DNA from: an uncultured Gammaproteobacteria bacterium
GTDB taxonomy: Bacteria > Pseudomonadota > Gammaproteobacteria > Halothiobacillales > Halothiobacillaceae
NCBI GenBank assembly: GCA_938004235.1
Contig: CALKWL010000339.1
Coordinates: forward strand, 1 to 42,238
DNA length: 42,238 nucleotides
Reading direction: 5' to 3'
The notes beneath the pieces are model-generated. The model saw only the letters and a program-made list of their open reading frames with translations, searched no databases and was not told the origin of the DNA. The position numbers were made by a program, and so were the translations under genes. Shown here one piece after another: positions 3,116 through 29,844 of the stretch. How positions within the stretch are numbered: position 1 is the stretch's first letter; each line of letters opens with the position of its first letter.

Positions 3116-3238
3116 ATTGGGCACTCCAACGCATACTCCGGCCTGAAACATGCTTGTTTGCAGGCTGGTCAAGTCTGTGGCCTTGTTGTTTATTCACAGG
3201 CATGACTCCAAGCACGCCTACCACCACGAGGTTCGTTC

Positions 3239-6200
3239 ATGAGTATCCACGTCGCGCTGCGTCACCGCACAGCCTATACCTTCGACCGTCCGGTGAGCCT
3301 GAGCACTCATTTGGTGCGCCTGAAGCCCGCCGCGCACTGCCGTACGCCGATTGAGGCCTATAGCCTGAAGGTCGAGCCGAAACTGCATTTCATTCACTGG
3401 CAGCAGGACCCGTTCGGCAACTACGTGGCGCGCCTGGATTTTCCTGAGAAAACCACGCATCTGAGCATTGATGTGGAAGTCATTGCCGATCTGGCGGACA
3501 TCAATCCCTTCGACTTTTTTGTCCAGGATGAGTACGAGCAATGGCCGTTCAGCTATGAGAAGACGCTCGCGGTGCAGCTCGTGCCCTATCTTGAAAAGGT
3601 TGAAACAGGCTCATGCTTTAAGGAGCTTTTGGCCTCGATTGAGCGCAGCAAAGTACGCACGACCGATAAGCTGGTCGAGCTGAATCAGCTCGTGCAGAAG
3701 CGAGTGGGTTACAACATCCGCATGGAGCCCGGTGTGCAGACGCCCGAAGAGACGCTTGGCTTGGGCACCGGCTCCTGTCGTGACAGCGCTTGGTTGCTGG
3801 TACAGCTCGCGCGCCATCTCGGCCTGGCCGCGCGCTTCGTTTCCGGCTATCTGGTGCAGCTCACCCTGGACGAAGCCCCGCTGGACGGGCCGCCCGGCAC
3901 GCCGAACGACTTCACCGACCTGCACGCCTGGGCGGAGATTTATCTGCCGGGCGCGGGCTGGATTGGCCTTGACCCAACCTCCGGGCTGTTCGCCAGCGAG
4001 GGGCATATCCCGCTGGCCTGTACGCCCTTCCCCGGCGATGCGGCGCCCATCAGCGGCGCCACGGATAAATGCGAAGTCGAGTTTGACTTCGTCAACGAGG
4101 TGACGCGCATCAAGGAGTCGCCGCGCGTCACCAAACCCTACACGGATGAAGAATGGGCGCGCATGAGTCGCCTAGGCGCCTTTGTCGATGCGCAAATGGC
4201 GGCGGCGGACATGCGCATGACCCAGGGCGGCGAGCCGACCTTTGTCTCCATCGACAATATGGAAGCGCCGGAGTGGAATACCGATGCGCTCGGCAAGCAC
4301 AAGCGTGAGCGCGCCGAAGACCTTGTGCGCCGACTGGGCGAGCGCTTCGCCAAGGGCGCGCTGCTGCACACTGCCCAGGGCAAGTGGTATCCCGGCGAAC
4401 CCTTGCCGCGCTGGGCGTTGGGTTTGTTCTGGCGTAAGGACGGCGTGCCGGTCTGGCGCAATCCGGCCTTGCTGGCGATGCCGGGGCGCGACTACGGGCA
4501 CACGCTGGAAAATGCGCGGGATTTTTCCAAAGCCCTGTGCGCGCAGCTGGGCTTGTCGCCGCTGTTTCTGCAAGAAGCCTTTGAGGACGGGCTGGAGCTG
4601 TTGCAGGAGGAGGCGCGCCTGCCCGTGGCGTGGGCGGTGGATGGCGCTGACAAGCGCAATGCCGCCGAGCGTCGCGCCTTGTTGGAAAAAATCAGCCGTG
4701 GGCTGGATGTGCCGCGCGGTTTTGTCTTGCCGCTGGCCTTCAATCCGATCACCCAGGCATTCAGCAGCGGGCCGTGGGCGCTGCGCCGCGGGCGCGTGGT
4801 GTTGATTCCGGGCGATTCGCCGCTGGGTCTGCGTCTGCCGCTGGATAGCCTGCCCTGGGTGGATAAGGCGCTGCGCGAGGAACTACCTGAGCGCGACAGC
4901 TTTGCTCCCGATTCGCCGCTGGCGGATTTTCATGACCTGGGTGAGGGCCTGGGTGAAGGCGCCGTTCCGGATGCGGCGATTTACGGTGAAGTCGCGGCGC
5001 GTTACACCCACACCACGCCCTATGTCGAGCCGCATCCTGAAATTCACGCCCAGACCGCGAGCGAGACTTGGGTGAAAGTGCCGCACACCGCCTTGTCCAT
5101 CGAGGTGCGTCAGGGCGTGCTGCATCTGTTCCTGCCGCCCTTTACCCTGCTGGAACCGGCGCTGGCCTTGATTGCCGCCATCGAGCGCACTGCCGAGGCG
5201 CTGGCCATGCCGGTAGTGATCGAGGGCTATGCGCCGCCGAGCGATAGCCGCATGGAAAAGCTGCTGGTCACGCCTGATCCCGGCGTGATCGAGGTCAACA
5301 TTCATCCGTCCTCGAATTGGGCGGAACTGGTCGAGCGCACCGAAGCGCTGTATCAGGAGGCGCGGCTGGCGCGTCTTGCCGCCGAGAAGTTCATGCTCGA
5401 CGGCCGCCACACGGGTACCGGCGGCGGCAACCACATGACCCTGGGCGGCATCACCCCCGCCGACAGCCCGTTCCTGCGCCGTCCGGATCTGCTGCGCAGT
5501 CTTGTGACCTACTGGCAGCACCATCCCAGCCTGTCCTACCTGTTCAGCGGCCTGTTCATCGGCCCGACCAGCCAGGCGCCGCGCGTGGACGAGGGGCGCG
5601 AGGATCGCGTCTACGAGCTGGAAATCGCGCTGGGGCTGATGGACGAAATGCAGCCGGAGGCCGCGCCGTGGCAGGTGGATCGCGCCCTGCGCCATTTGCT
5701 CACCGACCTGACCGGCAACACCCACCGTGCGGAAATCTGCATCGACAAACTCTATTCGCCGGACGGCCCCACCGGGCGACTGGGGCTGGTGGAGCTGCGC
5801 GGCTTTGAAATGCCGCCGCATCCGCGCATGTCGCTGGCGCAGGCTCTGCTCGTGCGCGCCATCATGCTGCGCCTGTGGAAAGCGCCGTATCGCAAGCCGC
5901 TGGCGCGTTGGGGCACGCTGTTGCACGACAAGTTCATGCTGGGGCACTACCTGCGCGAGGACTTGAAAGACATTTGCGCCGATCTGGCCGAACACGGCCT
6001 GCCGGTGGAAAGCGAGTGGTACGAGGGCTTTCTGGAGTTCCGCCTGCCGGAGTATGGCCGCTTCCAGATGGGCGACATCGAGATGGTGTTGCGCGCGGCC
6101 ATCGAGCCCTGGCATGTGCTGGGTGAAGAAGCCACGGCTTCAGGCATGGCGCGCTATGTGGACTCATCGGTCGAGCGGGTGGAGGTGACCATTCACGGCC

Positions 6201-6673
6201 TGACCAAGGGGCGCTATGTGCTGGCCTGCAACGGGCGTCGCGTGCCTCTGCGCCCGACCGGCCTGCAAGGGCAGATGGTGGGCGGCGTGCGCTACCGCGC
6301 CTGGCAACCGCCTTCGGCACTGCATCCGAACATCGGCATTCATGCGCCGCTGGTGTTCGATGTGATCGACACCTGGAACAACAAGAGCATCGGCGGCTGC
6401 ACCTACCACGTCGTGCATCCGGGCGGACGCAATTACGACCAGTTCCCGGTCAACGCCAATGCCGCCGAAGCGCGCCGCCACAACCGCTTCGAGTCGGCGG
6501 GGCACACCGTCGGCGTGTACGACGCGGTGAACTGGCCGCCGAGTTTTGTGCCCTCCGGCGCGCGTGTCATCCCGCATGACGACCTGCCGCGCCCGATGAT
6601 GCCGCCCGCTGAGGAGGTTGCCGGGGATATGCCGTATACGCTGGATTTACGGCGCAAGGCGGTGGTGATTTAG
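3239..6673 (+). CDS. Transglutaminase-like domain fused to putative amidoligase (DUF2126-type), 1144 aa
   Basis: N-terminal bacterial transglutaminase domain; GSCRDSAW (Cys), DLHAWAE (His), WIGLDPT (Asp) triad; C-terminal TQGGEPTF, PDPGVIEVN, GTGGGNH, GLVELRGFEMPPH motifs of the COOH-NH2 ligase-like DUF2126 region. Confidence 0.92.
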   Translation: MSIHVALRHRTAYTFDRPVSLSTHLVRLKPAAHCRTPIEAYSLKVEPKLHFIHWQQDPFGNYVARLDFPEKTTHLSIDVEVIADLADINPFDFFVQDEYEQWPFSYEKTLAVQLVPYLEKVETGSCFKELLASIERSKVRTTDKLVELNQLVQKRVGYNIRMEPGVQTPEETLGLGTGSCRDSAWLLVQLARHLGLAARFVSGYLVQLTLDEAPLDGPPGTPNDFTDLHAWAEIYLPGAGWIGLDPTSGLFASEGHIPLACTPFPGDAAPISGATDKCEVEFDFVNEVTRIKESPRVTKPYTDEEWARMSRLGAFVDAQMAAADMRMTQGGEPTFVSIDNMEAPEWNTDALGKHKRERAEDLVRRLGERFAKGALLHTAQGKWYPGEPLPRWALGLFWRKDGVPVWRNPALLAMPGRDYGHTLENARDFSKALCAQLGLSPLFLQEAFEDGLELLQEEARLPVAWAVDGADKRNAAERRALLEKISRGLDVPRGFVLPLAFNPITQAFSSGPWALRRGRVVLIPGDSPLGLRLPLDSLPWVDKALREELPERDSFAPDSPLADFHDLGEGLGEGAVPDAAIYGEVAARYTHTTPYVEPHPEIHAQTASETWVKVPHTALSIEVRQGVLHLFLPPFTLLEPALALIAAIERTAEALAMPVVIEGYAPPSDSRMEKLLVTPDPGVIEVNIHPSSNWAELVERTEALYQEARLARLAAEKFMLDGRHTGTGGGNHMTLGGITPADSPFLRRPDLLRSLVTYWQHHPSLSYLFSGLFIGPTSQAPRVDEGREDRVYELEIALGLMDEMQPEAAPWQVDRALRHLLTDLTGNTHRAEICIDKLYSPDGPTGRLGLVELRGFEMPPHPRMSLAQALLVRAIMLRLWKAPYRKPLARWGTLLHDKFMLGHYLREDLKDICADLAEHGLPVESEWYEGFLEFRLPEYGRFQMGDIEMVLRAAIEPWHVLGEEATASGMARYVDSSVERVEVTIHGLTKGRYVLACNGRRVPLRPTGLQGQMVGGVRYRAWQPPSALHPNIGIHAPLVFDVIDTWNNKSIGGCTYHVVHPGGRNYDQFPVNANAAEARRHNRFESAGHTVGVYDAVNWPPSFVPSGARVIPHDDLPRPMMPPAEEVAGDMPYTLDLRRKAVVI

Positions 6674-6689
6674 TACGCTTGCAGGATTT

Positions 6690-6784
6690 TGATCGTTGCC
6701 GCGCTCCAGCGTGGGAATGCAGCCCTGGACGCTCCAGCGTCCTGTACACGCTGGCTACGCGCCGCTGGAGCGTGGGAACGATCA
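6690..6784. repeat. REP-like palindromic element (GATCGTTCCCACGCTC..GCGTGGGAA type)
   Basis: tgatcgttgccgcgctccagcg ... cgctggagcgtgggaacgatca terminal inverted repeat with internal ggacgctccagcgtcc hairpin. Confidence 0.8.
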
Positions 6785-6807
6785 TTAGTCTTGTGAGGGC
6801 TTATGAC

Positions 6808-6840
6808 GGCTAACGCCCCTCTGCAACTTGTTGTTAGCGC
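6808..6840 (-). other. Truncated attC-like site (gene cassette remnant)
   Basis: Minus strand gcgctaac-aacaagttgcagaggggc-gttagcc, 3 nt after the stop of the 382-aa gene; has TAAC...GTTAG ends but is only 33 bp. Confidence 0.45.
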
Positions 6841-6843
6841 GAC

Positions 6844-7992
6844 TCACTCTGCAACGTCGTCATTCGAAAGAAACCCTGTCAGGAAGAACTTCTCGTCGTA
6901 GTGCGACACGTGCCAGAAGCTTCCTGAACTATCCAGCGCATCGACCTGGTAATCGACATGTACTTCGCCAATACCTGGTGGAACGGTGCTCTTCTGAGAG
7001 CTGTTGGTTGTTGCCTTCTCGTATATCGGAGCGCCATCGCGTTTCAGTTTCACGGAATATTTTCGAGGTTCTGTCCAGCGACTTGCTGCCGCCTTTTGAT
7101 CAGCTGATGCGAGCATTGTAATGGTTGTGTCTAGCACATACTCAGCACGCTCCCGCAAGCCGTCGGACTCCAACTTGGCGAAGTCCCTCTTGTGCACCCA
7201 TGTGGAGTTTTTCTTGTCGGATCGGTAAACCTCCGGGGTGAGACGCCAAACATTCCAAAATGAAACCGTGTCTATTCCTTTCCGCATGAGATCCATGTCG
7301 AGTTCGGAATGGTCTAAGACAATGTAGTCGGTAGGGTCGCAGACTGTCTTTTCAATATATTCCTTGCTACGAGCATAGTAGGGGGCTTTCCGCCCCCGCA
7401 GCGCGAACCCGAGTCCCTTTTTCTCTTCCGCAAACGGAGCTACGTCGTAGTCACGCTCGATTCTTACGAAGAGTGCTTTCCGACAATTGAATAGGCAGGT
7501 CTCGAAGTCTCCGTTTTCGAAAGCTTGCGCTGCATCTCGCACGAGGTCTTTGGCTTCTCCATCTTTCAATAGATCGATGAGGCTGACGCTAGCAAATGTC
7601 ACTCCAAGAATAGAGCTTGCGACCTCATCGAAGAGTTCGCGGACGGTGACCAAAAGGCCGCTGACTTCTGATTTTGCGGGCGCAATCCCGAAATGCTTTG
7701 AGCTGACCCGCAGTTTGTTTAGTGCCAAGAGGCGCGCCCTGAAGGGGAGCGATTTGGGCGAAATCCTGTCATCGATTAAATCAATGTACTGTTCGAATCC
7801 TGTTTTTCCTTGAATCTTCGCGTTAACTTGCTCTGCTACCGCGAGCAAGAATGCCTCTACAGCGTCTTGGAGCAGGTTGACCCCAATCGCCAGGCTAAGC
7901 TCATTGGTGGAGCTCAGGTTCTCTCGTGCTAAATCAAGCAGACGACGAGCCAATAAAAGTTTATGGATGATACTCTTCTGCATAGTACTCAC
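6844..7992 (-). CDS. HEPN-like domain protein with possible C-terminal SH3b-like domain (candidate toxin/defence)
   Basis: LLQDAVEAFL helix and R95-x4-H100 (RVSSKH) motif; C-terminal APIYEKATTNS..VPPG..FWHV..GFL pattern; visibly more AT-rich than flanks; alternative start ATG 7983. Confidence 0.6.
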   Translation of the reverse strand: MSTMQKSIIHKLLLARRLLDLARENLSSTNELSLAIGVNLLQDAVEAFLLAVAEQVNAKIQGKTGFEQYIDLIDDRISPKSLPFRARLLALNKLRVSSKHFGIAPAKSEVSGLLVTVRELFDEVASSILGVTFASVSLIDLLKDGEAKDLVRDAAQAFENGDFETCLFNCRKALFVRIERDYDVAPFAEEKKGLGFALRGRKAPYYARSKEYIEKTVCDPTDYIVLDHSELDMDLMRKGIDTVSFWNVWRLTPEVYRSDKKNSTWVHKRDFAKLESDGLRERAEYVLDTTITMLASADQKAAASRWTEPRKYSVKLKRDGAPIYEKATTNSSQKSTVPPGIGEVHVDYQVDALDSSGSFWHVSHYDEKFFLTGFLSNDDVAE

Positions 7993-8129
7993 GACGTCCC
8001 CGGGGTTTTTAATAGCGCCTAGCTTTAGAGTCCGGGGTAACTAACTGTAGCCGATTTCCCGGCCATTTGTTTTGCATACGCTCCAATTCGGTGCGTGTTG
8101 CGCAGGGGGGCAGTTCTCCTGATTCATGT

Positions 8130-9365
8130 TCACGCCTTGGCTCCGGCATCCAGCGCACGCAGGCTCTCTTCCACGCCGGCGGCATGGGTCAGGTCGGCGA
8201 CGTTGTCCTTGGTGAAAAAGCCCTGAAAATCGCCGAAACGCTGGACGTATTCGACGATTAGCGCCGAATGCTCGGAGGCGCTGGAGAAGATCTGCTTCAG
8301 CCCTTCCTCCCGCGAGCCGATGACGTTGAGCAGGAAGTTCTTGCCGCAACCCTTGAGAGCATCTACCACGTAATCGATGTTCGGCGCGCCGTTGGTTTCG
8401 CCGTCGGCCACGGAAATGGCCAGGTGGTGCAGGCGCGGGCCGAAATTGCGCACGAAGGCTTCGGTCGGCGAGGGCAGGTGCAGCAGGTGGTTGACGAAGT
8501 AGGGGTAGTTGGCGGCGGTGAACACCTTGGCCGGGCTCTTGGCTTCGCGCTCGTAGTGCACGCTCTTGGTGACGTTGGTGGATGAGTTCTGGTCGGCGAT
8601 GTCGTAGGAGCCCCAATAGTAATAGCTGCTGAGGGTGAGGTATTCGAGGATGGCGACTTCGCGGTTCTGGCTGTAGACGCGGGTGGCGAGGTGGTCGATG
8701 GGCAGAAGCAGGCTGTCCAGGCCGAGTTTGGCCTGCATGTTTTTGGCTTCGACATAGGCTTGCTGGATGTCGTCGCGGATGCTGGAGAGGCCGAGGGCGT
8801 AGACGCGCAGTTCGGACTCCGGGCGCTCCCAATAGCCGACGATGTTGTGGGTGTAGGGCGAGGGTTTGACGATGGCCATGTTGGCCGGAAGCTCGAGCTT
8901 GCGGATTTGCTCCTGGTTGAAGAAGCGGATCTCGCGCTCTTTTTGCAGCTCGACGACTTCGTGCAGATTGTCCACGCGGAAAATTTCGCCCATGTAGCGC
9001 GAGTTGGGCTTGGCTGCGCCGACGGGGTAAACCTCGTTGAGGCAGCGAAAGATGCCGCGCATGTTGGGGTCTTTGACTTCGCGCACCAAAAGGTCGGGCG
9101 AGTCGAGGTCGATGCGCAGGACGTGGGTGTAGTGTTCCTCACTTTCCAGGGTGACCAGGTAGTGGTAGGGCGTCATCAGGCAGAGCTCGTTGACATAGCC
9201 CACCGAGCGGTCAGGATCGACGGTAATCATCAGCGCATCCACCGCGCCGATCATGTTGGTCAGCCCCACGCGGTCGCGCTCTTCGAGCAGGCGCACGAGG
9301 TATTCCTCGAACATGGGCGAGTTGATTTTGTCCCCATAGCGGGGCAGGGCAAGCGACGGGCTCAT
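8130..9365 (-). CDS. VOC-superfamily, 4-hydroxyphenylpyruvate dioxygenase-like metalloenzyme
   Basis: C-terminal IDHLA, GPRLHHLA, LKQIFS and EYVQRFGDFQGFF..NV..L parallel the HPPD His/His/Glu iron motifs; RBS ggag before ATG 9365. Confidence 0.7.
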   Translation of the reverse strand: MSPSLALPRYGDKINSPMFEEYLVRLLEERDRVGLTNMIGAVDALMITVDPDRSVGYVNELCLMTPYHYLVTLESEEHYTHVLRIDLDSPDLLVREVKDPNMRGIFRCLNEVYPVGAAKPNSRYMGEIFRVDNLHEVVELQKEREIRFFNQEQIRKLELPANMAIVKPSPYTHNIVGYWERPESELRVYALGLSSIRDDIQQAYVEAKNMQAKLGLDSLLLPIDHLATRVYSQNREVAILEYLTLSSYYYWGSYDIADQNSSTNVTKSVHYEREAKSPAKVFTAANYPYFVNHLLHLPSPTEAFVRNFGPRLHHLAISVADGETNGAPNIDYVVDALKGCGKNFLLNVIGSREEGLKQIFSSASEHSALIVEYVQRFGDFQGFFTKDNVADLTHAAGVEESLRALDAGAKA

Positions 9366-9404
9366 CAAAAGGCTCCTTGGATTGGTTCTTCAGAACAGGA
9401 GTTC

Positions 9405-9420
9405 TGCAAGAACTGTTCCA
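9405..9420 (-). promoter_or_regulatory. Sigma54 (-24/-12) promoter of the HPPD-like gene
   Basis: Minus strand TGGAACAGTTCTTGCA: GG-N10-GC with TTGCA, 40 nt upstream of the start. Confidence 0.7.
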
Positions 9421-9485
9421 TGAGACCCGTGCCAATCAGGCTGTTGGATGCCCGATGCTTGATGGGCGTGCGGCAGGAGGGTGGC

Positions 9486-10310
9486 TTAGCTGATCTGGTT
9501 GAATGGATTCATGCAAGGTTGCTGTAGGGCGCACATTTGCTCTTGAACAGGCTGCGGCGCGGTAGGGGGTGTTTCATCGCCCTCGCCGGGTTGCCAGGGA
9601 ATGCGCGGCAAGCCGTCAAGTGCACGCAGCAGACCCGCGCCCCATTTTTCGGTCAGCTCGCGGTAGTAGGGGTCATCTTCGTTGAGTTTGATGCGATAGG
9701 GCTGATCGATCATGTCGCGCTGCAAAATCAGCAGTTCGACTGGCGCGCCGACGCTCAGGTTGCTGCGGATGGTGGAGTTGATGGAGACCAGGGCGCAGCG
9801 TGCAGCGGTTTCCAGATCGGTTTCGGGCTGGATGACGCGATCCAGAATGGGCTTGCCGTATTTGGTTTCGCCAATCTGCAAAAACGGGTGTGCAGGCGGC
9901 TCATGAATGAAATTGCCCTGGGCGTAGATCATGTACAGTTCGGGCGCCTGACCAAGAATCTGGCCGCCAAAAATAAAGGTGGCTTCGAAGTTGGTGTTGG
10001 CCGTGTCGCGGGCTTGTTGCTGGCGTTGCACATTGGTGCTCAGTTGCGCGACAAAATCCACGGCAGCGTGCATATTGGGCATGGTGCTCAGGATGGGTTG
10101 ACCGTCTGCACCTAATTGGTGCATCTGTTTGACCACCTCCTGCGTCGTGGCCAGATTGCCGGCGGCCAGGAGAACAAACATGCGGTTTCCGGGAAAGCGG
10201 TAGCAGTGCATTTTGCTGTAGGTACTGATGTGGTCGAGACCCGCATTGGTACGTGAATCGCTGGCGAATATGAGGCCATTGTTCACGTGAATTCCGACAC
10301 AGTAGGTCAT
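9486..10310 (-). CDS. Anbu proteasome-type Ntn-hydrolase (ancestral beta-subunit)
   Basis: MTYCVG..ASDSRTNAGLDHISTYSKM, AGNLATTQ, FLQIGETKYGKPILDR, STIRSNLSVGAP; Thr at mature N-terminus. Confidence 0.93.
   Translation of the reverse strand: MTYCVGIHVNNGLIFASDSRTNAGLDHISTYSKMHCYRFPGNRMFVLLAAGNLATTQEVVKQMHQLGADGQPILSTMPNMHAAVDFVAQLSTNVQRQQQARDTANTNFEATFIFGGQILGQAPELYMIYAQGNFIHEPPAHPFLQIGETKYGKPILDRVIQPETDLETAARCALVSINSTIRSNLSVGAPVELLILQRDMIDQPYRIKLNEDDPYYRELTEKWGAGLLRALDGLPRIPWQPGEGDETPPTAPQPVQEQMCALQQPCMNPFNQIS
10107..10123. promoter_or_regulatory. NtrC-type enhancer box inside the Anbu CDS
   Basis: Perfect palindrome TGCACC-TAATT-GGTGCA, about 285 bp upstream of a sigma54 motif. Confidence 0.55.
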
Positions 10311-10406
10311 GGGCTTTATCCTGAGAACTTCGTGTGGGGGGGAGTGTAACAAGGGTTCGGTATAAGCGAGTCAGAAAAATAAGCCAGAAATGCGCCATCT
10401 CGTATA

Positions 10407-10422
10407 TGGCCTCAAGATTGCT
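10407..10422 (+). promoter_or_regulatory. Sigma54 (-24/-12) promoter of the ATP-grasp/alpha-E operon
   Basis: TGGCCTCAAGATTGCT: GG-N10-GC; followed by RBS aggagg and ATG 10449. Confidence 0.7.
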
Positions 10423-10448
10423 AGGTTGCTGAACAGGAGGAACGGACT

Positions 10449-11891
10449 ATGCGCTGCGAGAGTTATCCGAAAACATCGTTCTACGATGAGTTGATTGATG
10501 AGCGCGGTGAACCGCGCGCAACGGCCAAAGCCTTGTGTGCGCACCTGAACCTGCAAAGCGCCGAAGATTTGCGCGCCCGCAGGGAAGCTGTAGACGCTGC
10601 GATCATGACCATGGGCATCAGCTTTACGGTGTACAGCGATGCGGGAAATATCGACCGTGCTTGGCCATTTGACCTGATTCCGCGCATTGTGCCGGAGCGT
10701 GAATGGAAGCAGATTGACGCGGGCTTAAAGCAGCGTCTGCGCGCCTTGAACATGTTTATCGAAGATATTTACAACGAGCAGGACATCGTGCGCGAAGGCG
10801 TGTTTCCGGCGGATGTGCTGGAAGGCTCAGTCAATTATCTTGCGCCCTGTGAGGGCATGAAGCTGCGTTATGGCGCGTGGGCGCATATTTGCGGCACGGA
10901 TCTGGTGCGCGGCGGCGACGGGGTGATGTATGTGCTGGAAGACAATCTGCGCGTGCCGTCCGGCGTGTCCTATATGTTGGAAAATCGCGGGTTGATGAAG
11001 CGCCTTTTGCCGGAGCTGTTTGCCGACCAGGCCATTCTGCCGCTGGATGATTACACCACGCGCCTGTACGAAATGCTGGCCTCGCTCTGTCCGCGCGATA
11101 CGGAGCATCCGGTGATCGTGGTGCTGACGCCGGGGGTGTACAACTCGGCGTATTTTGAGCATAGCTATCTGGCGCAACAGATGGGTGCGTATCTGGTTGA
11201 AGGTACGGACTTGAGTGTTGATGCGGATGATGTCGTGACCATGCGCACGGTGGCCGGGCCGCGTCGGGTCGATGTGATTTACCGCCGGGTGGATGACAAG
11301 TTCATTGACCCCGAAGTGTTCCACAAGGATTCCGTTTTGGGCGTGCCCGGTTTGATGCGCGCCTGGCGCGCCGGCAAGGTGGCGATTGCCAATGCGCCCG
11401 GCTCGGGTGTGGCGGACGACAAGATCGTGTACACCTATGTGCCTGACATGATTCGCTTTTATCTGAATGAAGAGCCGATCCTGCCGAATGTGCCCAGTTA
11501 TCTGTGTATGCGCGAGGATCACCGCGAGTACGTTCTGGCGCATCTGGACGAGCTGGTGGTCAAGCCGGCCAATGAGTCCGGCGGCTACGGCATGTTGATC
11601 GGTCCCAAGGCGAGCGAGGCGGAGCGCGCCGAGTTTGCCAAGCGGATTATTGCCGAGCCGCGCAACTACATGGCGCAGCCAATGCTGGCGCTTTCCACCG
11701 TGCCGACTTTGATCGGCGACGAGCTTGCGCCGCGCCATGTGGACTTGCGCCCGTTTATCCTGCAAGGCAAGGAGATGAGCGTGACCACGGGCGGGCTGAC
11801 CCGCGTGGCCATGCGCGAGGGTTCGATCGTGGTCAACTCCAGTCAGGGCGGCGGCAGCAAGGACACCTGGATTGTGAAGGAGGGCGTGTAA
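10449..11891 (+). CDS. Circularly permuted type 2 ATP-grasp peptide ligase
   Basis: WPFDLIPR, VLEDNLRVPSGVSY, VLTPGVYNSAYFEH, VDVIYRRVDD, VVKPANESGGYG, HVDLRPF, VVNSSQGGGSKDTW. Confidence 0.95.
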   Translation: MRCESYPKTSFYDELIDERGEPRATAKALCAHLNLQSAEDLRARREAVDAAIMTMGISFTVYSDAGNIDRAWPFDLIPRIVPEREWKQIDAGLKQRLRALNMFIEDIYNEQDIVREGVFPADVLEGSVNYLAPCEGMKLRYGAWAHICGTDLVRGGDGVMYVLEDNLRVPSGVSYMLENRGLMKRLLPELFADQAILPLDDYTTRLYEMLASLCPRDTEHPVIVVLTPGVYNSAYFEHSYLAQQMGAYLVEGTDLSVDADDVVTMRTVAGPRRVDVIYRRVDDKFIDPEVFHKDSVLGVPGLMRAWRAGKVAIANAPGSGVADDKIVYTYVPDMIRFYLNEEPILPNVPSYLCMREDHREYVLAHLDELVVKPANESGGYGMLIGPKASEAERAEFAKRIIAEPRNYMAQPMLALSTVPTLIGDELAPRHVDLRPFILQGKEMSVTTGGLTRVAMREGSIVVNSSQGGGSKDTWIVKEGV

Positions 11892-12844
11892 TGCTCGCGC
11901 GTGTCGCTGAAAACCTGTACTGGATGGGACGGCAGCTTGAGCGTGCCGAAAATACCGCGCGTTTGGTAAATGCCACTACCCAGGTGCTGCTGGATTCGCC
12001 TACGGGGATTGAGCTGGGCTGGGATGAATTGACCCGGGTGATGGGCTTCCCTTCTACGCAGGGCGTGACTGAAGCTGACGTGGTGCATCTGTTTCTGCTT
12101 GATCAGGACAACCCGGGCTCGATTGTGGTGAGTTTGCGTCAGGCGCGCGAGAATGCGCGTTCCCTGCGTGAAGTACTGCCGCGTGAAGCCTGGGAGCAGT
12201 TGAATTCCCTGCATTTGCGTGCGCCTGCGCTGATGACCGCGGCGTTGGAACGCTCGCGGCGTGATGCGGCATTACGTGAGGTCGTGGATGCGCGTTTGTT
12301 GCTGGCGGGTTTGCTGAACGAAACCATGAGCCATGATGCCGCGTTTCAGTTTTTGCGCCTGGGCGCCTTGCTGGAGCGTGCAGACATGACCTCGCGCATC
12401 GTGGATATCAGCAGCGCCGTGGCCTGTACCGCGCCGGGAGGCTTGGGCATGGAAACCACCTGGATCAGTATCCTCAAGGCTCTGAGCGGTTTCCAGATGT
12501 ATCGTCGTCACAAAAATGTACGCATCTCGCCTAAGGCTGTGGTGAGCTTTTTGTTCTCCGATCCGCGTTTTCCGCGCGCGATTCGTTATTGCCTGGAGAA
12601 TATCGAGAGCATTCTGGCCGAGCTTCCCGATCCTGCCGACCCCTTGCGCTCTGCGCGTCAGACCGCGCGCCTGCTCGCCAAGGTGGAACACAGCATGGAG
12701 CTGAATGATGGTTTGCCGGTCTTGATCGACGAGATTCAGCAACGCCTATGCGAGTTGCACAATGCCATTCATGAGCACTATTTCGCCAAGCCGAAGCCCG
12801 AGGCCATTGAGCCTGCACAGACCCAAAATATGGCGGAGGCCTGA
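11891..12844 (+). CDS. Alpha-E domain protein (DUF403 type)
   Basis: MLARVAENLYWMGRQLERAENTAR, ARENARSLRE, LERADMTSRI, FPRAIRYC; start overlaps the ATP-grasp stop. Confidence 0.93.
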   Translation: MLARVAENLYWMGRQLERAENTARLVNATTQVLLDSPTGIELGWDELTRVMGFPSTQGVTEADVVHLFLLDQDNPGSIVVSLRQARENARSLREVLPREAWEQLNSLHLRAPALMTAALERSRRDAALREVVDARLLLAGLLNETMSHDAAFQFLRLGALLERADMTSRIVDISSAVACTAPGGLGMETTWISILKALSGFQMYRRHKNVRISPKAVVSFLFSDPRFPRAIRYCLENIESILAELPDPADPLRSARQTARLLAKVEHSMELNDGLPVLIDEIQQRLCELHNAIHEHYFAKPKPEAIEPAQTQNMAEA

Positions 12845-12880
12845 ATAGTGCGAAGATTTTCAAATGCTTAGGACAATACC

Positions 12881-13192
12881 ATGGATACGATGACGATGCA
12901 GAAGCTGGCGCGTTTCAAAATCATGACGCGCCGATTGGGTGGTTTTAACGTCGATATCTTCCGCTTGGCGCAGGCCGACGATTATGCTCGCGAGATTCTG
13001 GCGCGCGCGCAGGAAGTGGATAACGAGACGCTGGTGTTGTTGGCGCTGGAACTCTCGGATGCGCTCGGCCTGCTGGAGGCGCCCGAAGCTGAGAATAAAG
13101 TCACGTCGTCGCCCATTAAACCGAAACATGCCGAACCTATTGTGGCCGAGGGTAAAGATACCCACAATTACACCTACGGCGCGCGGTTTTAA
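12881..13192 (+). CDS. Small hypothetical protein with helical core, flexible linker and C-terminal YTYGARF tail
   Basis: RBS aggac before ATG; co-directional between alpha-E and the ATPase gene. Confidence 0.75.
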   Translation: MDTMTMQKLARFKIMTRRLGGFNVDIFRLAQADDYAREILARAQEVDNETLVLLALELSDALGLLEAPEAENKVTSSPIKPKHAEPIVAEGKDTHNYTYGARF

Positions 13193-13242
13193 ATTTTCCA
13201 GGGATGGAATAAAACAGCATTTACCTAATTAGAGACACAGAT

Positions 13243-13935
13243 ATGGCGGACATTCATTTCATTGGCGGCGAAAAGGGCGGCGTGGGCAAATCCATGATGG
13301 CGCGTATTCTGGCGCAGTATTTCATTGACCACGAGCTGCCGTTTATTGGTTTTGATGCCGATAAGTCGCATGGCGCCCTGCTGCGCTTCTACAGCGACTA
13401 TGCTTCCAAAGTGGCGGCGGACAGCTATGAGAGCCTGGATCTCATTGTCGAAGCGGCCACGGCGGATTTTGATCGTCCCGTGCTGGTTGATCTGGCCGCG
13501 CAAACGCAGGACGCCCTGATGCGCTGGATTGACGACTCCGACGTGCTTGGCCTCGCCAGTGAATTGGGGCTGGGCATTCGTTACTGGCATGTGATGGACT
13601 CGGGGCGCGATTCGGTGGACTTGCTCGCGGTGCTGCTGGAGCGCTTTGACGACAAGCTTGACTATGTGCTGGTGCTTAATCAGGTGCGCGGCGATGATTT
13701 TGGCATTCTCAGACAGTCTGGCCTGCTCGCGCGTGCGCAGGAACTGGGCGCGAAGGTCATGACCCTCAAGCGTCTGCATGAGGCCTCGATGGTGAAGATT
13801 GATGCGAGTAATAGCAGCTTCTGGGCGGCGACCCAAGGCGGGGCAGCGCATGAACTTGGACTGCTGGAGCGTCAGCGCGTGAAAATGTGGCTGAAGTCGG
13901 CGTATCAGGAAATCGATCAGCTCATGCAGGGCTGA
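13243..13935 (+). CDS. ParA/MinD-superfamily P-loop ATPase (MobD-like)
   Basis: IHFIGGEKGGVGKS deviant Walker A, FDADKSH, VLVDLAAQ. Confidence 0.85.
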   Translation: MADIHFIGGEKGGVGKSMMARILAQYFIDHELPFIGFDADKSHGALLRFYSDYASKVAADSYESLDLIVEAATADFDRPVLVDLAAQTQDALMRWIDDSDVLGLASELGLGIRYWHVMDSGRDSVDLLAVLLERFDDKLDYVLVLNQVRGDDFGILRQSGLLARAQELGAKVMTLKRLHEASMVKIDASNSSFWAATQGGAAHELGLLERQRVKMWLKSAYQEIDQLMQG

Positions 13936-19046: not shown

Positions 19047-19241
19047 CTAGCCGCCTGTTGGGCTGGAGGTGATCTGGCTGCAAAAGCTTGTGGAATCCAT
19101 CCATGGATCCCGCCCTTAGTCAGGCTGTCGAAATACTTGTTTCAGCAGCCTGACTAAGGGCGGGACATGGGTGTCCCGCACGCAATCTGTCCTCGGTCGG
19201 CGACTTTTTCGCTTCAGCCGTTCAAGTCCACAGGCTGCTGG
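19047..19241. mobile_element. Composite element: family C-like ends enclosing family A hairpins (copy 2)
   Basis: Ends ctagccgcctgttgggctgga / tcaagtccacaggctgctgg resemble the ctagcagcctgtcggactt terminus; internal 20-bp perfect-arm hairpin 19108-19165 and gggacatgggtgtcccgcacgcaa. Confidence 0.7.
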
Positions 19242-19274
19242 CGCTTAACTTATAAAAATTACGGGAGGTGGGTC

Positions 19275-20312
19275 ATGACAGAGCAATATGCAGGTGTTGA
19301 AGCGCGTCGGAGTTTTTTGCGCACGGTCGCCAGCGCGGCCGCGGTGGGCGTGTTGAGTCTGCCCACGCTTGCGCCCCTGCAAGCGTTCGCCAAGGAGATG
19401 GACATGGTGGTGAAGGGGCCGCCCGTACCCGACATTCCTGCTACGAAGATTGGGGAGCATACCTATGTGGTGATTGCTCCGGACGGTTTTCCAAATGCCA
19501 AAAACCAAGGGTTGATGAGTAATGTCAGCTTTGTGGTGACGCAAAAAGGCGTGGTGATTTTGGACTCAGGCGCGTCCACGCAAATTGGCGACATGGCGCT
19601 GCGTCAAATTAAAAAGGTGACCAACAAGCCGATTATTGCGGTATTCAACACGCACTATCACGGCGACCATTGGCTTGGAAATCATGCGTTTGTCGAGGCG
19701 AACAAGGAGGTGCCGATTTACGCGCACGCGCTCACCATGTCGGCGATCAAGTCCGGGCAGGGTGAGTATTGGGTCAAGCTGATGGAGCGCTCGACTGATA
19801 ATGCAACCATCGGCACGGTCGTGACCCCGCCGAACAAGGAAGTAAAGCATGGTGACGAATTCAAGTACGGCGACGTAACCATTCGCTGTCTGCATTATGG
19901 TACGGCGCATACGCCAGCAGATGTGTGCTTCGAGGTCGTCGAGGATCGTATCGTGCACGTCGGTGATGTGGCCATGGATCGGCGTATCGCCTTTATGGAG
20001 GATGGCTCGTATCTTGGGACATTCAAAACCTACGATGAGCTGGAGAAACTCCAGCCCAAGGTGAAGGTGTGGTTGCCAGGGCACGGTCTTCCGGGGGCGA
20101 ACGTACTTAAAGACAACCGTGAGCTGTTCGAGGGCATTTACGGCGCCTGTGTTGAGGCGGTCAAGCAGGGCAAGCCGCTGGAGCAGGCCAAAATCATGGT
20201 GCTGGCCGATCCCCGCGTGAAAAAATGGGCACCGGTCACCAAGGGCTTCGAGGAGAATATCGGCAACTACACCATCCTGGCCTATACCGAGGCGGAACAG
20301 GCGAATTTTTAA
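19275..20312 (+). CDS. Tat-exported MBL-fold metallohydrolase, SoxH-like
   Basis: RRSFL twin-arginine signal; NTHYHGDHWLGN; AHT..D; PGHG; RBS ggagg before ATG 19275. Confidence 0.8.
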   Translation: MTEQYAGVEARRSFLRTVASAAAVGVLSLPTLAPLQAFAKEMDMVVKGPPVPDIPATKIGEHTYVVIAPDGFPNAKNQGLMSNVSFVVTQKGVVILDSGASTQIGDMALRQIKKVTNKPIIAVFNTHYHGDHWLGNHAFVEANKEVPIYAHALTMSAIKSGQGEYWVKLMERSTDNATIGTVVTPPNKEVKHGDEFKYGDVTIRCLHYGTAHTPADVCFEVVEDRIVHVGDVAMDRRIAFMEDGSYLGTFKTYDELEKLQPKVKVWLPGHGLPGANVLKDNRELFEGIYGACVEAVKQGKPLEQAKIMVLADPRVKKWAPVTKGFEENIGNYTILAYTEAEQANF

Positions 20313-28173: not shown

Positions 28174-29844
28174 TTAGAACGGAACAAACCCCATCGAGCC
28201 TTTGAGCGTAAAGTCTGCTGCCGTGCCAATAATGACCTTCATGGGTGTGGCGTTCATACTGATAAGGCCTGTGGCCTTGTCGAAGCTTACGCCATAGTCG
28301 GAGCATTTGAGTAATTGACCCACCGCTTGGGATGGCGTAAGTGTGCACATACCAGTCACGTTCCCTAGAGGGGCGCTGACGATTGGAAGGCCGCCGCCTA
28401 CGTTAATTTGCAATGTTTCGGATTCAGGGTTGCCGGCCATGCGCACATAGGCCACGACGAGCTTCAGTTGGTTTATGTCGGCGCCAACCTGCCATGACCA
28501 TTTTTTGCGGTCAAGAAAGGTTACGTCGGTCACGCCCTGTTCGAACACGGGGGCGCTTTGTGGAATTTTGGTAAACCCGTTAATCGGCGCCGAGAGTGTG
28601 ACGCCGCTGCCAGCGCCAGGCGTGCCGCCTGTGCCGCCGCCGTCATCACTGGCAGGTTTGTCGCCGCGCACGACGGTCACCCCATCCTTGGGTGATACGC
28701 CACTCCATGAGCGGTCGGCGAACAGGTCAATGTGTCCTTGCTTGAAATGCAGGTAGAGCATTTTGCCGTGGGTTGCACTGGTTTCCATGCACAGCGAGTC
28801 GAGGGGATACTCGATGCCATTGTAGAAAATCGTGGCATCGGTACCCACCAGGAGTTGTGCGTCACCGGTCTTGGTGAAATTGAAGCTGTTGTCGAAAACA
28901 CCCTCACTACCGCTGTAGGGGCCGGAGAAGCTGACAATATCCATGGCTCCGGGCAGGCTGACTGCGGTGCCCGGCTGGAAGAGCTCGGTTTTACAGCTAA
29001 GTGCGGCGGCGGGTTGCGGCGTAGTTTGGCAGCTCAGGCGCTCATCTTTCAGCTCGCAGTAGCCGCTGTCGAGTCCCTTGGCAATCGCCGCCGAGAGTTT
29101 GCTCTTGAGCTTTTTACGATCAGCGTCCGAGCCATTGGCGAGGGTGTTGGTCAGTGTGCTCAGATAGGCTCCCAAATCCCCCTGCATTTTTGCATCGGCC
29201 TGCATCTGCGAGAGGGCGCGCAGCAGTTCGCGGTAAGCCATGGACAGCGCATTGGCGTTGCCTAAGGCGGGGAGTGTATCCAGTAGATTGAATGCGCTGT
29301 CCAGTTGCGGCAGCACGGTTAGCAGTTGTTTGGTCTTTGCTTCGATGTCAGTACGCGTTAGGTTGTTTGCCATGCGTACGGCGGCTTCCGTGAAGGGGGT
29401 GATAGCGGCTGAAGTGACGCCGCCATTTGCACCAACAACAACGATGTTGCGCAGGGTGCCTTTCAGCGGTGTTCCGCTGCTTTCATCGCCCACGGTGGCT
29501 TCGTCATCGTAGGCTGCGCCATTTTCGATGGCGAGTAGAACCTCCCCGACATAGCTGCCAATATCAATCGTAAACTGGCTATCGGCATTAACGCTGGAGC
29601 AGGCGATTTTGCCGCCTTGCTTGCCTGCGTCGAGCTTGTACGCGCAGGTCTGACCGCTCAGGAACTTGCCGGCCATAGCTGTACCCGACACACTGCTGGA
29701 AAGTGTTGTCCCGCCCCCTCCTTCGCCTCCCGTGCTGTCTCCTCCAGTGTTGCTCGGTGCAGCATCATCGGAGCCGCCGCAGCCCGCCACGCTGGCGATG
29801 ATGATTGCGCAAGCCATCGCAAGAATGCTCTTCTTCCTTTTCAT
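28174..29844 (-). CDS. Large hypothetical lipoprotein (556 aa)
   Basis: MKRKK..IIIASVAG-C lipobox; Gly/Ser linkers separating several domains. Confidence 0.8.
   Translation of the reverse strand: MKRKKSILAMACAIIIASVAGCGGSDDAAPSNTGGDSTGGEGGGGTTLSSSVSGTAMAGKFLSGQTCAYKLDAGKQGGKIACSSVNADSQFTIDIGSYVGEVLLAIENGAAYDDEATVGDESSGTPLKGTLRNIVVVGANGGVTSAAITPFTEAAVRMANNLTRTDIEAKTKQLLTVLPQLDSAFNLLDTLPALGNANALSMAYRELLRALSQMQADAKMQGDLGAYLSTLTNTLANGSDADRKKLKSKLSAAIAKGLDSGYCELKDERLSCQTTPQPAAALSCKTELFQPGTAVSLPGAMDIVSFSGPYSGSEGVFDNSFNFTKTGDAQLLVGTDATIFYNGIEYPLDSLCMETSATHGKMLYLHFKQGHIDLFADRSWSGVSPKDGVTVVRGDKPASDDGGGTGGTPGAGSGVTLSAPINGFTKIPQSAPVFEQGVTDVTFLDRKKWSWQVGADINQLKLVVAYVRMAGNPESETLQINVGGGLPIVSAPLGNVTGMCTLTPSQAVGQLLKCSDYGVSFDKATGLISMNATPMKVIIGTAADFTLKGSMGFVPF

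What the first reader, a model, noticed from the sequence alone, without database searches (positions are those of the whole stretch)
3239..13935. Expanded Anbu / ATP-grasp / alpha-E / transglutaminase cluster with three extra components: candidate undescribed peptide-synthesis or protein-tagging system
Established: circularly permuted ATP-grasp, alpha-E, transglutaminase and Anbu genes form a conserved operon predicted to make or remove peptide linkages; to my knowledge its product is unknown. Seen: all four are present, with a second ligase-like domain (DUF2126-type) fused to the transglutaminase. Also present are an HPPD-like metalloenzyme behind Anbu, and a small protein plus a ParA/MinD-like ATPase behind alpha-E. 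Inference: two ligases, two hydrolase/transferases, an oxygenase, an ATPase and a possible substrate form one nitrogen-responsive pathway, for example a storage peptide or a protein tag.
Basis: partly seen in the sequence, partly recalled or inferred. Interest (0 to 1): 0.85.

Follow-up and report, generated by a model that had tools for sequence, protein, structure and literature searches.

The report
Anbu cluster with optional iron enzyme
This is a known but still unexplained bacterial gene set, predicted to make and cut amide bonds during nitrogen shortage, and in carbon-dioxide-fixing and one-carbon-using bacteria it repeatedly sits beside an unstudied, likely iron-dependent oxygenase that gives a new way to test what the system makes, while the other two extra genes look like likely co-regulated passengers.

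Summary
All seven genes are real, but they form three transcription directions around an unmentioned foreign gene, not one operon. The core (CP-ATP-grasp, alpha-E, transglutaminase-DUF2126, Anbu) is the known Anbu system; Anbu and transglutaminase catalytic residues are intact. A conserved sigma-54 promoter and an NtrC-type site support nitrogen control.

The three extras differ. The HPPD-fold protein is a true but optional partner: 36 of 38 sampled Gammaproteobacteria genomes that have it also have the ligase (background 123 of 400), half its loci lie beside the core in many gene orders, and 33 of 38 carry RuBisCO versus 19 of 42 controls. The ATPase co-occurs (12 of 12) but is usually unlinked. 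The small protein has a conserved C-terminal tail, yet persists in 5 genomes without the ligase and has its own sigma-54 promoter when alone (12 of 12), so it is unlikely to be the obligate substrate.

Most likely: a glutathione-like peptide build-and-cut cycle with an accessory 2-oxo-acid oxygenase (chemistry inferred, about 0.4). This scan already noted the oxygenase link twice on other DNA. New variant of a known kind.

The parts
3140..3153 (+). Weak sigma-54-like -24/-12 element ahead of TG-DUF2126, after the fba terminator
   Evidence: Same spacing in 6 of 6 same-genus loci; misses the strict pattern; no shuffle control; inferred
3239..6673 (+). Transglutaminase-like domain (Cys180, His229, Asp245) fused to DUF2126 putative amidoligase, 1144 aa
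   Evidence: Pfam; motif positions
8130..9365 (-). HPPD-fold (two-domain VOC) protein, 411 aa, His225/His314/Glu372 and Gln358; optional partner of the system
   Evidence: Fold; residues kept in 30 of 32 aligned proteins down to about 25% identity; linkage
9486..10310 (-). Anbu proteasome-like Ntn hydrolase, 274 aa, Thr1/Asp17/Lys32 intact
10107..10123 (.). NtrC-type palindrome inside the Anbu coding sequence, 300 bp upstream of the sigma-54 promoter
   Evidence: Only site with at most 1 mismatch in the 2.93 Mb genome (17 with at most 2); 0-2 mismatches in 7 of 7 divergently arranged relatives that have the promoter; consensus recalled
10343..10351 (-). Conserved element upstream of Anbu: extended -10-like box or remnant of a sigma-54 promoter
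   Evidence: Present in the window and 6 of 7 relatives; a full sigma-54 motif stands here in 3 relatives but not in the window
10407..10422 (+). Sigma-54 -24/-12 promoter motif for CP-ATP-grasp, alpha-E, small gene and ATPase
   Evidence: Only strict match in the window; motif in 14 of 15 family loci and 58 of 82 other loci against 1.3 expected
10449..11891 (+). Circularly permuted ATP-grasp type 2 ligase, 480 aa
   Evidence: Pfam; profile match to PDB 3n6x, deposited as putative glutathionylspermidine synthase
11891..12844 (+). Alpha-E protein, 317 aa, overlapping the ligase stop codon
   Evidence: Pfam; invariant ER motifs
12881..13192 (+). Small protein, 103 aa: four-helix N-domain, disordered linker, conserved C-terminal Tyr-x-x-Gly-Ala-Arg-x tail; sigma-54-regulon passenger
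   Evidence: Model; tail pattern in 112 of 120 homologues; independent distribution
13243..13935 (+). ParA/MinD-superfamily, TraL-like ATPase, 230 aa; facultative neighbour
   Evidence: distribution

Best explanation
This is an Anbu-type cluster, predicted to be switched on by sigma-54/NtrC in nitrogen shortage, that likely builds and cuts a small glutathione-like (gamma-glutamyl) peptide, and it sits beside an optional HPPD-fold enzyme predicted to oxidise and decarboxylate a 2-oxo acid formed in or fed into that cycle. Shown: genes, catalytic residues, folds, promoter motifs, co-occurrence and linkage. Inferred steps: (1) DUF2126 forms a first amide bond and the CP-ATP-grasp with alpha-E a second, as GshA and GshB do; (2) the Cys-His-Asp transglutaminase-like domain and Thr1 Anbu transfer or hydrolyse those bonds and so recycle nitrogen; (3) in autotrophs and C1 users, which handle amino-acid carbon poorly, the Fe(II) His/His/Glu enzyme turns a leftover or precursor 2-oxo acid plus O2 into a hydroxy acid plus CO2; (4) the small protein and the ATPase share the nitrogen regulon but are not required steps.
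For: Core domains and residues. The ligase's only PDB relative by sequence is a putative glutathionylspermidine synthase; Valas and Bourne note a glutathione-synthetase-like domain (PMC3235984); the Yersinia ATP-grasp releases phosphate from ATP while Anbu cut none of the standard proteasome substrates (PMC6376114). The core is NtrC-dependent in Burkholderia (PMC5491218); the genome has RpoN and NtrC. VOC: 69 of 80 best GTDB loci have a core gene nearby, 59 of 80 directly behind alpha-E (counted); 36 of 38 VOC genomes have the ligase against 123 of 400; 18 of 38 loci linked, in many orders; when VOC heads the unit it has the sigma-54 motif in 6 of 9 (0.1 expected); two distant ligase clades in one family both carry it. 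RuBisCO in 33 of 38 against 19 of 42. HPPD fold with triad and Gln358.
Against: No substrate or product is known or testable here. VOC is unlinked in 20 of 38 sampled loci, orphan copies mostly lack a sigma-54 motif (2 of 29), and the window's Anbu-VOC strand lacks one too. 87 of 123 ligase genomes have no VOC match; VOC presence needs at least 11 changes on the ligase tree, so no dedicated ligase subtype. 2 of 38 VOC genomes (divergent subfamily) lack the ligase. I did not measure how common the ligase is among RuBisCO genomes, so lifestyle confounds part of the co-occurrence; kin are not independent. Divergent relatives cluster in Thermodesulfobacteriota, mostly anaerobes by recall, which questions O2 use. 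DUF2126 has no meaningful solved relative by sequence (best E 0.6); its ligase role rests on the Pfam description and recall of Iyer 2009.
Confidence: 0.4

Rival explanations
1. Protein tagging: the ligases add amino acids or short peptides to target proteins, the transglutaminase and Anbu remove the tag or degrade tagged proteins, and the small protein with its conserved tail is a tag, carrier or activator in some lineages.
For: Published proposal (passages of PMC6376114; PMC5666114). The tail is conserved after a variable linker: Gly at -4 and Arg at -2 in 119 of 120, Tyr at -7 in 117 of 120. The small gene follows alpha-E or VOC in two lineages; 6 of 10 Thiobacillaceae loci are linked. PMC6376114 notes a groove in Anbu that could take a C-terminal tail.
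Against: The small gene is in 5 genomes with no ligase match (four of them 99% complete) and keeps its tail there; all 8 copies in a sister genus lie away from the operon; 0 of 36 class-wide VOC loci carry it. The last residue varies (Ser 87, Gly 21, Phe 9 of 120) and the model is four-helix, not ubiquitin-like. No stable complexes among Yersinia operon proteins were detected (PMC6376114).
Confidence: 0.25
2. Regulon island: the VOC enzyme does an independent job in autotrophs and C1 users and only gathers near the Anbu genes to share nitrogen control, like the small gene and the ATPase.
For: Half of the loci are unlinked with no consistent neighbours; strong tie to RuBisCO; linked loci in Thiobacillus often lie next to nitrate/nitrite assimilation genes (names read from the sequences by recall); no fusion found (a weak test).
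Against: No gene other than the core recurs beside VOC in more than about a tenth of 126 loci; adjacency recurs in many orders and on several ligase clades; 6 of 6 tested genomes with an unlinked VOC still hold the ligase; in relatives 0 of 34 ligase-less genomes have VOC, including ligase-less members of the same family.
Confidence: 0.2
3. The VOC protein is a real partner but not an oxygenase: it is a metal-dependent isomerase, epimerase or thiol transferase (glyoxalase I or FosA type) using a thiol peptide made by the ligases, for example against reactive aldehydes from high triose-phosphate flux.
For: Weak profile hits to glyoxalase and methylmalonyl-CoA epimerase chains (E 0.01-0.09); divergent clusters with Glyoxalase Pfam in 11-16% of members in Thermodesulfobacteriota; the tie to RuBisCO; glutathione-synthetase-like ligases next door.
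Against: All top fold matches are HPPD or hydroxymandelate synthase over the whole chain; the C-domain His/His/Glu set and the Gln of the HPPD motif are kept.
Confidence: 0.15

Closest known systems
Anbu operon: CP-ATP-grasp (COG2308), alpha-E (COG2307), transglutaminase-like (COG1305), Anbu (Valas and Bourne 2008, PMC3235984; PMC5666114; PMC6376114; Iyer et al. 2009, not held)
   Same: All four components; Anbu Thr1/Asp17/Lys32 and the transglutaminase triad intact; sigma-54/NtrC signals match reported nitrogen control (PMC5491218).
   Different: Split into three directions; transglutaminase present only as the DUF2126 fusion; carries the HPPD-fold gene, a small tailed protein and a TraL-like ATPase, none mentioned in the passages I read.
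4-hydroxyphenylpyruvate dioxygenase / hydroxymandelate synthase (PDB 3isq, 2r5v, 7yvv)
   Same: Whole-chain two-domain VOC fold (Z 26-28, rmsd 3.3-3.7, about 300 aligned), His/His/Glu triad and Gln in the same motifs.
   Different: 13-18% identity, no Pfam match, different C-terminal lid motif, no recurring aromatic-catabolism neighbours; a separate, very conserved family (74-80% identity across classes).
Glutathione cycle (GshA, GshB or GspS, gamma-glutamyl transpeptidase, phytochelatin synthase); recalled
   Same: Same kit of folds: carboxylate-amine ligase, permuted ATP-grasp, Thr-Ntn hydrolase, papain-like Cys enzyme.
   Different: An analogy of function only; no substrate shown; alpha-E and the VOC enzyme have no counterpart.
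TraL-like / ParA-MinD ATPases ('mobilization protein')
   Same: Deviant Walker A; predicted structure matches TraL/CbiA clusters at TM about 0.9.
   Different: TraL model score 37 against cut-off 360; no conjugation genes in the window; no fixed partner gene seen beside it.
Carrier or tag proteins (LysW, Pup, ubiquitin-like); recalled
   Same: Small folded domain plus flexible linker plus conserved C-terminal tail next to an ATP-grasp gene.
   Different: No terminal Gly-Gly or Glu, helical fold, not tied to the ligase in distribution.

Membership tests
Anbu operon | CP-ATP-grasp, alpha-E, transglutaminase-like and Anbu genes clustered | tested here: met
   all within 3239-12844
Anbu operon | Anbu Thr1/Asp17/Lys32 and transglutaminase Cys/His/Asp | tested here: met
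Anbu operon | Canonical single operon in conserved order | tested here: not met
   Three directions. PMC3235984 says split forms are predicted to share a regulon, so I treat this as a variant layout, not an exclusion; a sister genus has one co-directional operon ending in VOC
Anbu operon | Induction by nitrogen limitation through sigma-54/NtrC | tested here: inconclusive
   Motifs conserved; expression not measured
Anbu operon | Reaction product | not testable with these tools
   Unknown in the papers read
HPPD / hydroxymandelate synthase | Two-domain VOC fold | tested here: met
HPPD / hydroxymandelate synthase | His/His/Glu metal triad and Gln in the C-domain motifs | tested here: met
   Alignment to 7yvv; 30 of 32 rows keep all four, the two exceptions look frameshifted or degenerate
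HPPD / hydroxymandelate synthase | Match to curated HPPD or Glyoxalase profiles | tested here: not met
   No Pfam or NCBIfam family at E 0.01; so it works like, but is not filed as, an HPPD
HPPD / hydroxymandelate synthase | Fe(II)/O2-dependent turnover of 4-hydroxyphenylpyruvate | not testable with these tools
   Needs an assay
ParA/MinD superfamily | Deviant Walker A with signature Lys; CbiA profile | tested here: met
   Invariant in 7 of 7 aligned; 26.7 bits against cut-off 25.4
TraL conjugal transfer protein | NCBIfam cut-off and conjugative context | tested here: not met
   37 against 360 bits; no tra genes among the window proteins scanned
Ubiquitin-like, Pup or LysW carriers | Terminal Gly-Gly or Glu as the ligation site | tested here: not met
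   Tail ends in Arg plus a variable residue
Ubiquitin-like, Pup or LysW carriers | Strict co-occurrence with the ligase | tested here: not met
Ubiquitin-like, Pup or LysW carriers | Known carrier fold | tested here: inconclusive
   Four-helix model; no Foldseek match at E 0.001; the wide search was not run

The most novel reading that the evidence does not exclude
Autotrophs and C1 bacteria run an undescribed nitrogen-starvation pathway in which the Anbu ligases and a new family of HPPD-fold oxygenase jointly make or recycle an unknown hydroxylated gamma-glutamyl-type metabolite, with the TraL-like ATPase and the sigma-54-controlled tailed protein as regulators; finding the oxygenase's 2-oxo-acid substrate would name the long-sought substrate of the whole Anbu system.
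Probability: 0.2. Interest if true: 0.82.

Novelty: new variant of a known kind. Interest (0 to 1): 0.52.

Why it matters
The Anbu system was in 123 of 400 sampled Gammaproteobacteria genomes, and since 2008 its substrate has stayed unknown in the papers I could read. An HPPD-fold partner narrows the search: such enzymes act on small 2-oxo acids and can be screened by O2 uptake or CO2 release without knowing the pathway. Its tie to RuBisCO-bearing and C1 bacteria points to a carbon-nitrogen link and to usable hosts (Thiobacillus, Methylomonas, Halothiobacillus). Sorting the extras also saves effort, since the small protein is more likely a separate sigma-54-controlled factor than the tag. Interest is tempered because the core is known, no chemistry is shown, and this scan has noted the oxygenase link twice before.

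Tried and rejected
Complex prediction of ligase + alpha-E + small protein: no answer (score 0.02), no evidence either way. RNA runs: no RNA holder listed. Fused forms of VOC among longer proteins: none at E 0.001, a weak test. VOC on plasmids: no match. Single-sequence PDB search with VOC: none. Fold search with the small protein: nothing at E 0.001. PADLOC: no match for 5 proteins. Idea that VOC replaces 2-oxoglutarate dehydrogenase: sucA is missing in 14 of 38 VOC genomes against 6 of 42, but 24 of 38 have it and among RuBisCO genomes the difference vanishes (14 of 33 against 5 of 19, p 0.37), so not supported. Idea of a VOC-specific ligase clade: rejected (21 changes, at least 11 forced, shuffled mean 31; fused ligases and rows under 43% identity left out; the sample was enriched for VOC loci). 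Idea of a fixed small gene + ATPase pair as in ParA/ParB: 1 of 80 ATPase loci holds a small gene and it is not adjacent. A 2026 preprint shows the Mycobacterium proteins Rv2411c and Rv2567 (homologues of the ligase by recall) did not make GABA-trehalose. Literature: eight searches listed no paper joining Anbu to a dioxygenase, VOC or ParA-like gene; Iyer 2009 and Hervas 2008 were not held, and Iyer's text or supplement may already show the link.
Full report
Setting. The window is contig C339 of a 2.93 Mb assembly, 92% complete. Same-genus loci match records titled Halothiobacillaceae. The genome has two RuBisCO large-subunit matches, RpoN and NtrC and no sucA match. The cluster lies between pyk-fba and bioD-carbonic anhydrase-purC.

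Observation. All seven ORFs exist. Pfam confirms transglutaminase + DUF2126, CP_ATPgrasp_2, Alpha-E and a proteasome-type subunit. Anbu keeps Thr1, Asp17 and Lys32; the transglutaminase keeps Cys180, His229 and Asp245. The layout is not one operon: TG-DUF2126 runs forward, Anbu and the 411-aa gene run backward, and ligase, alpha-E, small gene and ATPase run forward with gaps of -1, 36 and 50 bases. A 382-aa, 51% GC gene (6844-7992) is inserted here and is missing at this place in 6 of 6 same-genus loci that span it.

Regulation. A sigma-54 motif at 10407-10422 is the only strict match in the window and recurs upstream of the ligase in 14 of 15 family loci and 58 of 82 other loci, against 1.3 expected from shuffles. 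An NtrC-type palindrome (consensus recalled) at 10107-10123 lies inside Anbu, 300 bases upstream. It is the only site with at most one mismatch in the genome. About 0.5 such sites are expected by chance genome-wide, so its position and conservation carry the weight. It has 0-2 mismatches in 7 of 7 divergently arranged relatives with the promoter, survives amino-acid changes, and is absent in the one relative lacking the promoter. These relatives are kin. NtrC dependence of the core genes is reported for Burkholderia cenocepacia (PMC5491218). The window's Anbu-VOC strand has no sigma-54 match, although three relatives do.

The 411-aa protein. It has no Pfam or NCBIfam family but at least 2314 relatives, the best 120 at 76% identity or more. 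The model is confident (pLDDT 92) and matches HPPD and hydroxymandelate synthase over the whole chain (Z 28.2, rmsd 3.7, 322 aligned, 17% identity). His225, His314, Glu372 and Gln358 align with the HPPD motifs and are kept in 30 of 32 aligned proteins.

Linkage of the 411-aa protein. Of the best 80 of 580 confirmed GTDB loci, 70 have a core or transglutaminase gene nearby (69 without one lone transglutaminase; 44 of 50 with 5 kb on both sides), and 59 stand directly behind alpha-E (counted). This set favours close relatives and includes four same-genus loci. In an even sample of 400 Gammaproteobacteria genomes, 38 have it, 123 have the ligase (one of the 123, G185, is unpublished and enters this count only), and 36 of the 38 have both. 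The two exceptions belong to a divergent subfamily. Of 38 non-self loci, 18 are within about 9 kb of a core gene, in many orders; the other 20 have no consistent neighbours. Six of six tested genomes with an unlinked copy hold the ligase elsewhere. In the 61 relatives all 17 carriers have the ligase and none of 34 ligase-less genomes carries it. A sister genus has a distant ligase (50-55% identity) in one operon ending in this gene, in a separate starred clade. When the gene heads the unit it has the sigma-54 motif in 6 of 9 cases; as an orphan in 2 of 29. It is optional: 87 of 123 ligase genomes have no match, and its presence needs at least 11 changes on a 93-row ligase tree. RuBisCO is found in 33 of 38 carriers against 19 of 42 ligase-positive non-carriers (every second one of 86); RuBisCO-less carriers include Methylotenera and Methylomonas (C1 users by recall). 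Ligase frequency among all autotrophs was not measured.

The ATPase. It is a ParA/MinD-superfamily, TraL-like protein. In the class sample 12 of 400 genomes have it; all 12 have the ligase and 10 have the VOC gene. Five of 12 lie within 10 kb of the core, and 3 of the other 7 have a sigma-54 motif. In metagenomes 7 of 80 loci show a core or VOC gene (11 counting lone transglutaminases), and only 1 of 19 with 4 kb on both sides. Within the genus it is in 4 of 8 operon-bearing genomes. It is tied to the system's hosts and recurs beside it, but it is not a fixed part.

The small protein. It has four helices (residues 3-61), a disordered linker and a conserved tail. It follows alpha-E in this genus and VOC in Thiobacillus; 11 of 101 Thiobacillaceae genomes have it and 6 of the 10 fetched are linked. 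Against a substrate role: it occurs in 22 of 61 relatives (one a weak hit), five with no ligase match. In four operon-less genus members it follows fba directly, and in the sister genus all 8 copies lie apart from the operon. All 12 of these orphans have their own sigma-54 motif (0.29 expected) and keep the tail. None of 36 class-wide VOC loci carries it. It is best read as an independent sigma-54-controlled protein that shares the ligase promoter here.

Mechanism. The fold kit parallels the glutathione cycle (recalled): a putative amidoligase, a permuted ATP-grasp whose only PDB relative by sequence is a putative glutathionylspermidine synthase, a papain-like Cys enzyme and a Thr-Ntn hydrolase. 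With the reported ATP cleavage by the ligase and the lack of standard peptidase activity in Anbu (PMC6376114), I commit at about 0.4 to a small-peptide build-and-cut cycle for nitrogen recycling, with the HPPD-fold enzyme oxidatively decarboxylating a 2-oxo acid tied to it. All chemistry is inferred. Protein tagging (0.25), a mere regulon island (0.2) and a non-oxidative VOC role (0.15) remain open.

Papers seen. Passages found by term: PMC5666114, PMC6376114, PMC3235984, PMC5491218, PMC3597751, PMC12316311, bioRxiv 2026.08.26.747336 (irrelevant). Abstract, outline and passages: bioRxiv 2026.04.15.718621. Iyer 2009 and Hervas 2008 were not held and are known only through those passages and recall. 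No supplement was read; Iyer's neighbourhood tables may bear on novelty. Eight searches listed nothing joining Anbu with these extras. Two earlier notes of this scan report the oxygenase link in other genomes; they are not independent support.

Verdict. Observation confirmed, interpretation partly supported. A new variant of a known, unexplained system: one real optional enzyme tied to autotrophy, one loose ATPase, one passenger. Interest 0.52.

Noticed in passing
window 6844-7992 (-), with 6690-6784 and about 6805-6842: 382-aa, 51% GC gene with only a sub-threshold HEPN match and no PADLOC match, missing at this place in same-genus loci; beside it a 22-nt inverted repeat and a short element that by eye resembles a cassette recombination site. 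Likely a recent foreign insert.
   Followed up: partly
window 10107-10123: An NtrC-type enhancer embedded in the Anbu coding sequence; codon third positions stay fixed while amino acids change.
   Followed up: yes
window 12881-13192; L312-L325, L199-L208: An unnamed small-protein family of sulfur oxidisers with its own sigma-54 motif and a conserved Tyr-x-x-Gly-Ala-Arg-x tail, independent of the ligase; could be a nitrogen-starvation regulator or protease adaptor. In several Thiobacillus loci it follows a nitrite reductase-like gene or precedes a chemoreceptor-like gene (names recalled).
   Followed up: partly
G000 contig C195, 1-595 (-): A second Anbu (44% identity, catalytic residues kept), cut by the contig end, with no core gene on that contig.
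   Followed up: partly
L312, L313, L314, L317: Same-genus genomes lacking the whole TG-to-alpha-E block have fba, a sigma-54 motif and the small gene in a row, so the block was lost or gained as a unit.
   Followed up: partly
P0155, P0158 and relatives; L239-L241: A divergent VOC subfamily (25-45% identity) keeps the metal triad; two members carry an N-terminal Cys-rich zinc-ribbon-like extension; three sampled loci are unlinked and two of those genomes lack the ligase.
   Followed up: partly
L024 1-5400; L139 170-1340: Nitrogen-scavenging genes next to related clusters: allophanate hydrolase-like and urea carboxylase-like genes divergent from the operon, and a cyanase-like gene after the ATPase (names recalled from the sequences).
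   Followed up: no
window 28174-29844 (-): 556-aa ORF with no Pfam, NCBIfam or PADLOC family, next to a LuxR/7TMR-DISM two-component pair.
   Followed up: no
window 19167-20312 (+): Metallo-beta-lactamase-fold protein, best match to SoxH-related quinoprotein relay hydrolases, below all cut-offs; divergent from a Zur-like regulator.
   Followed up: no
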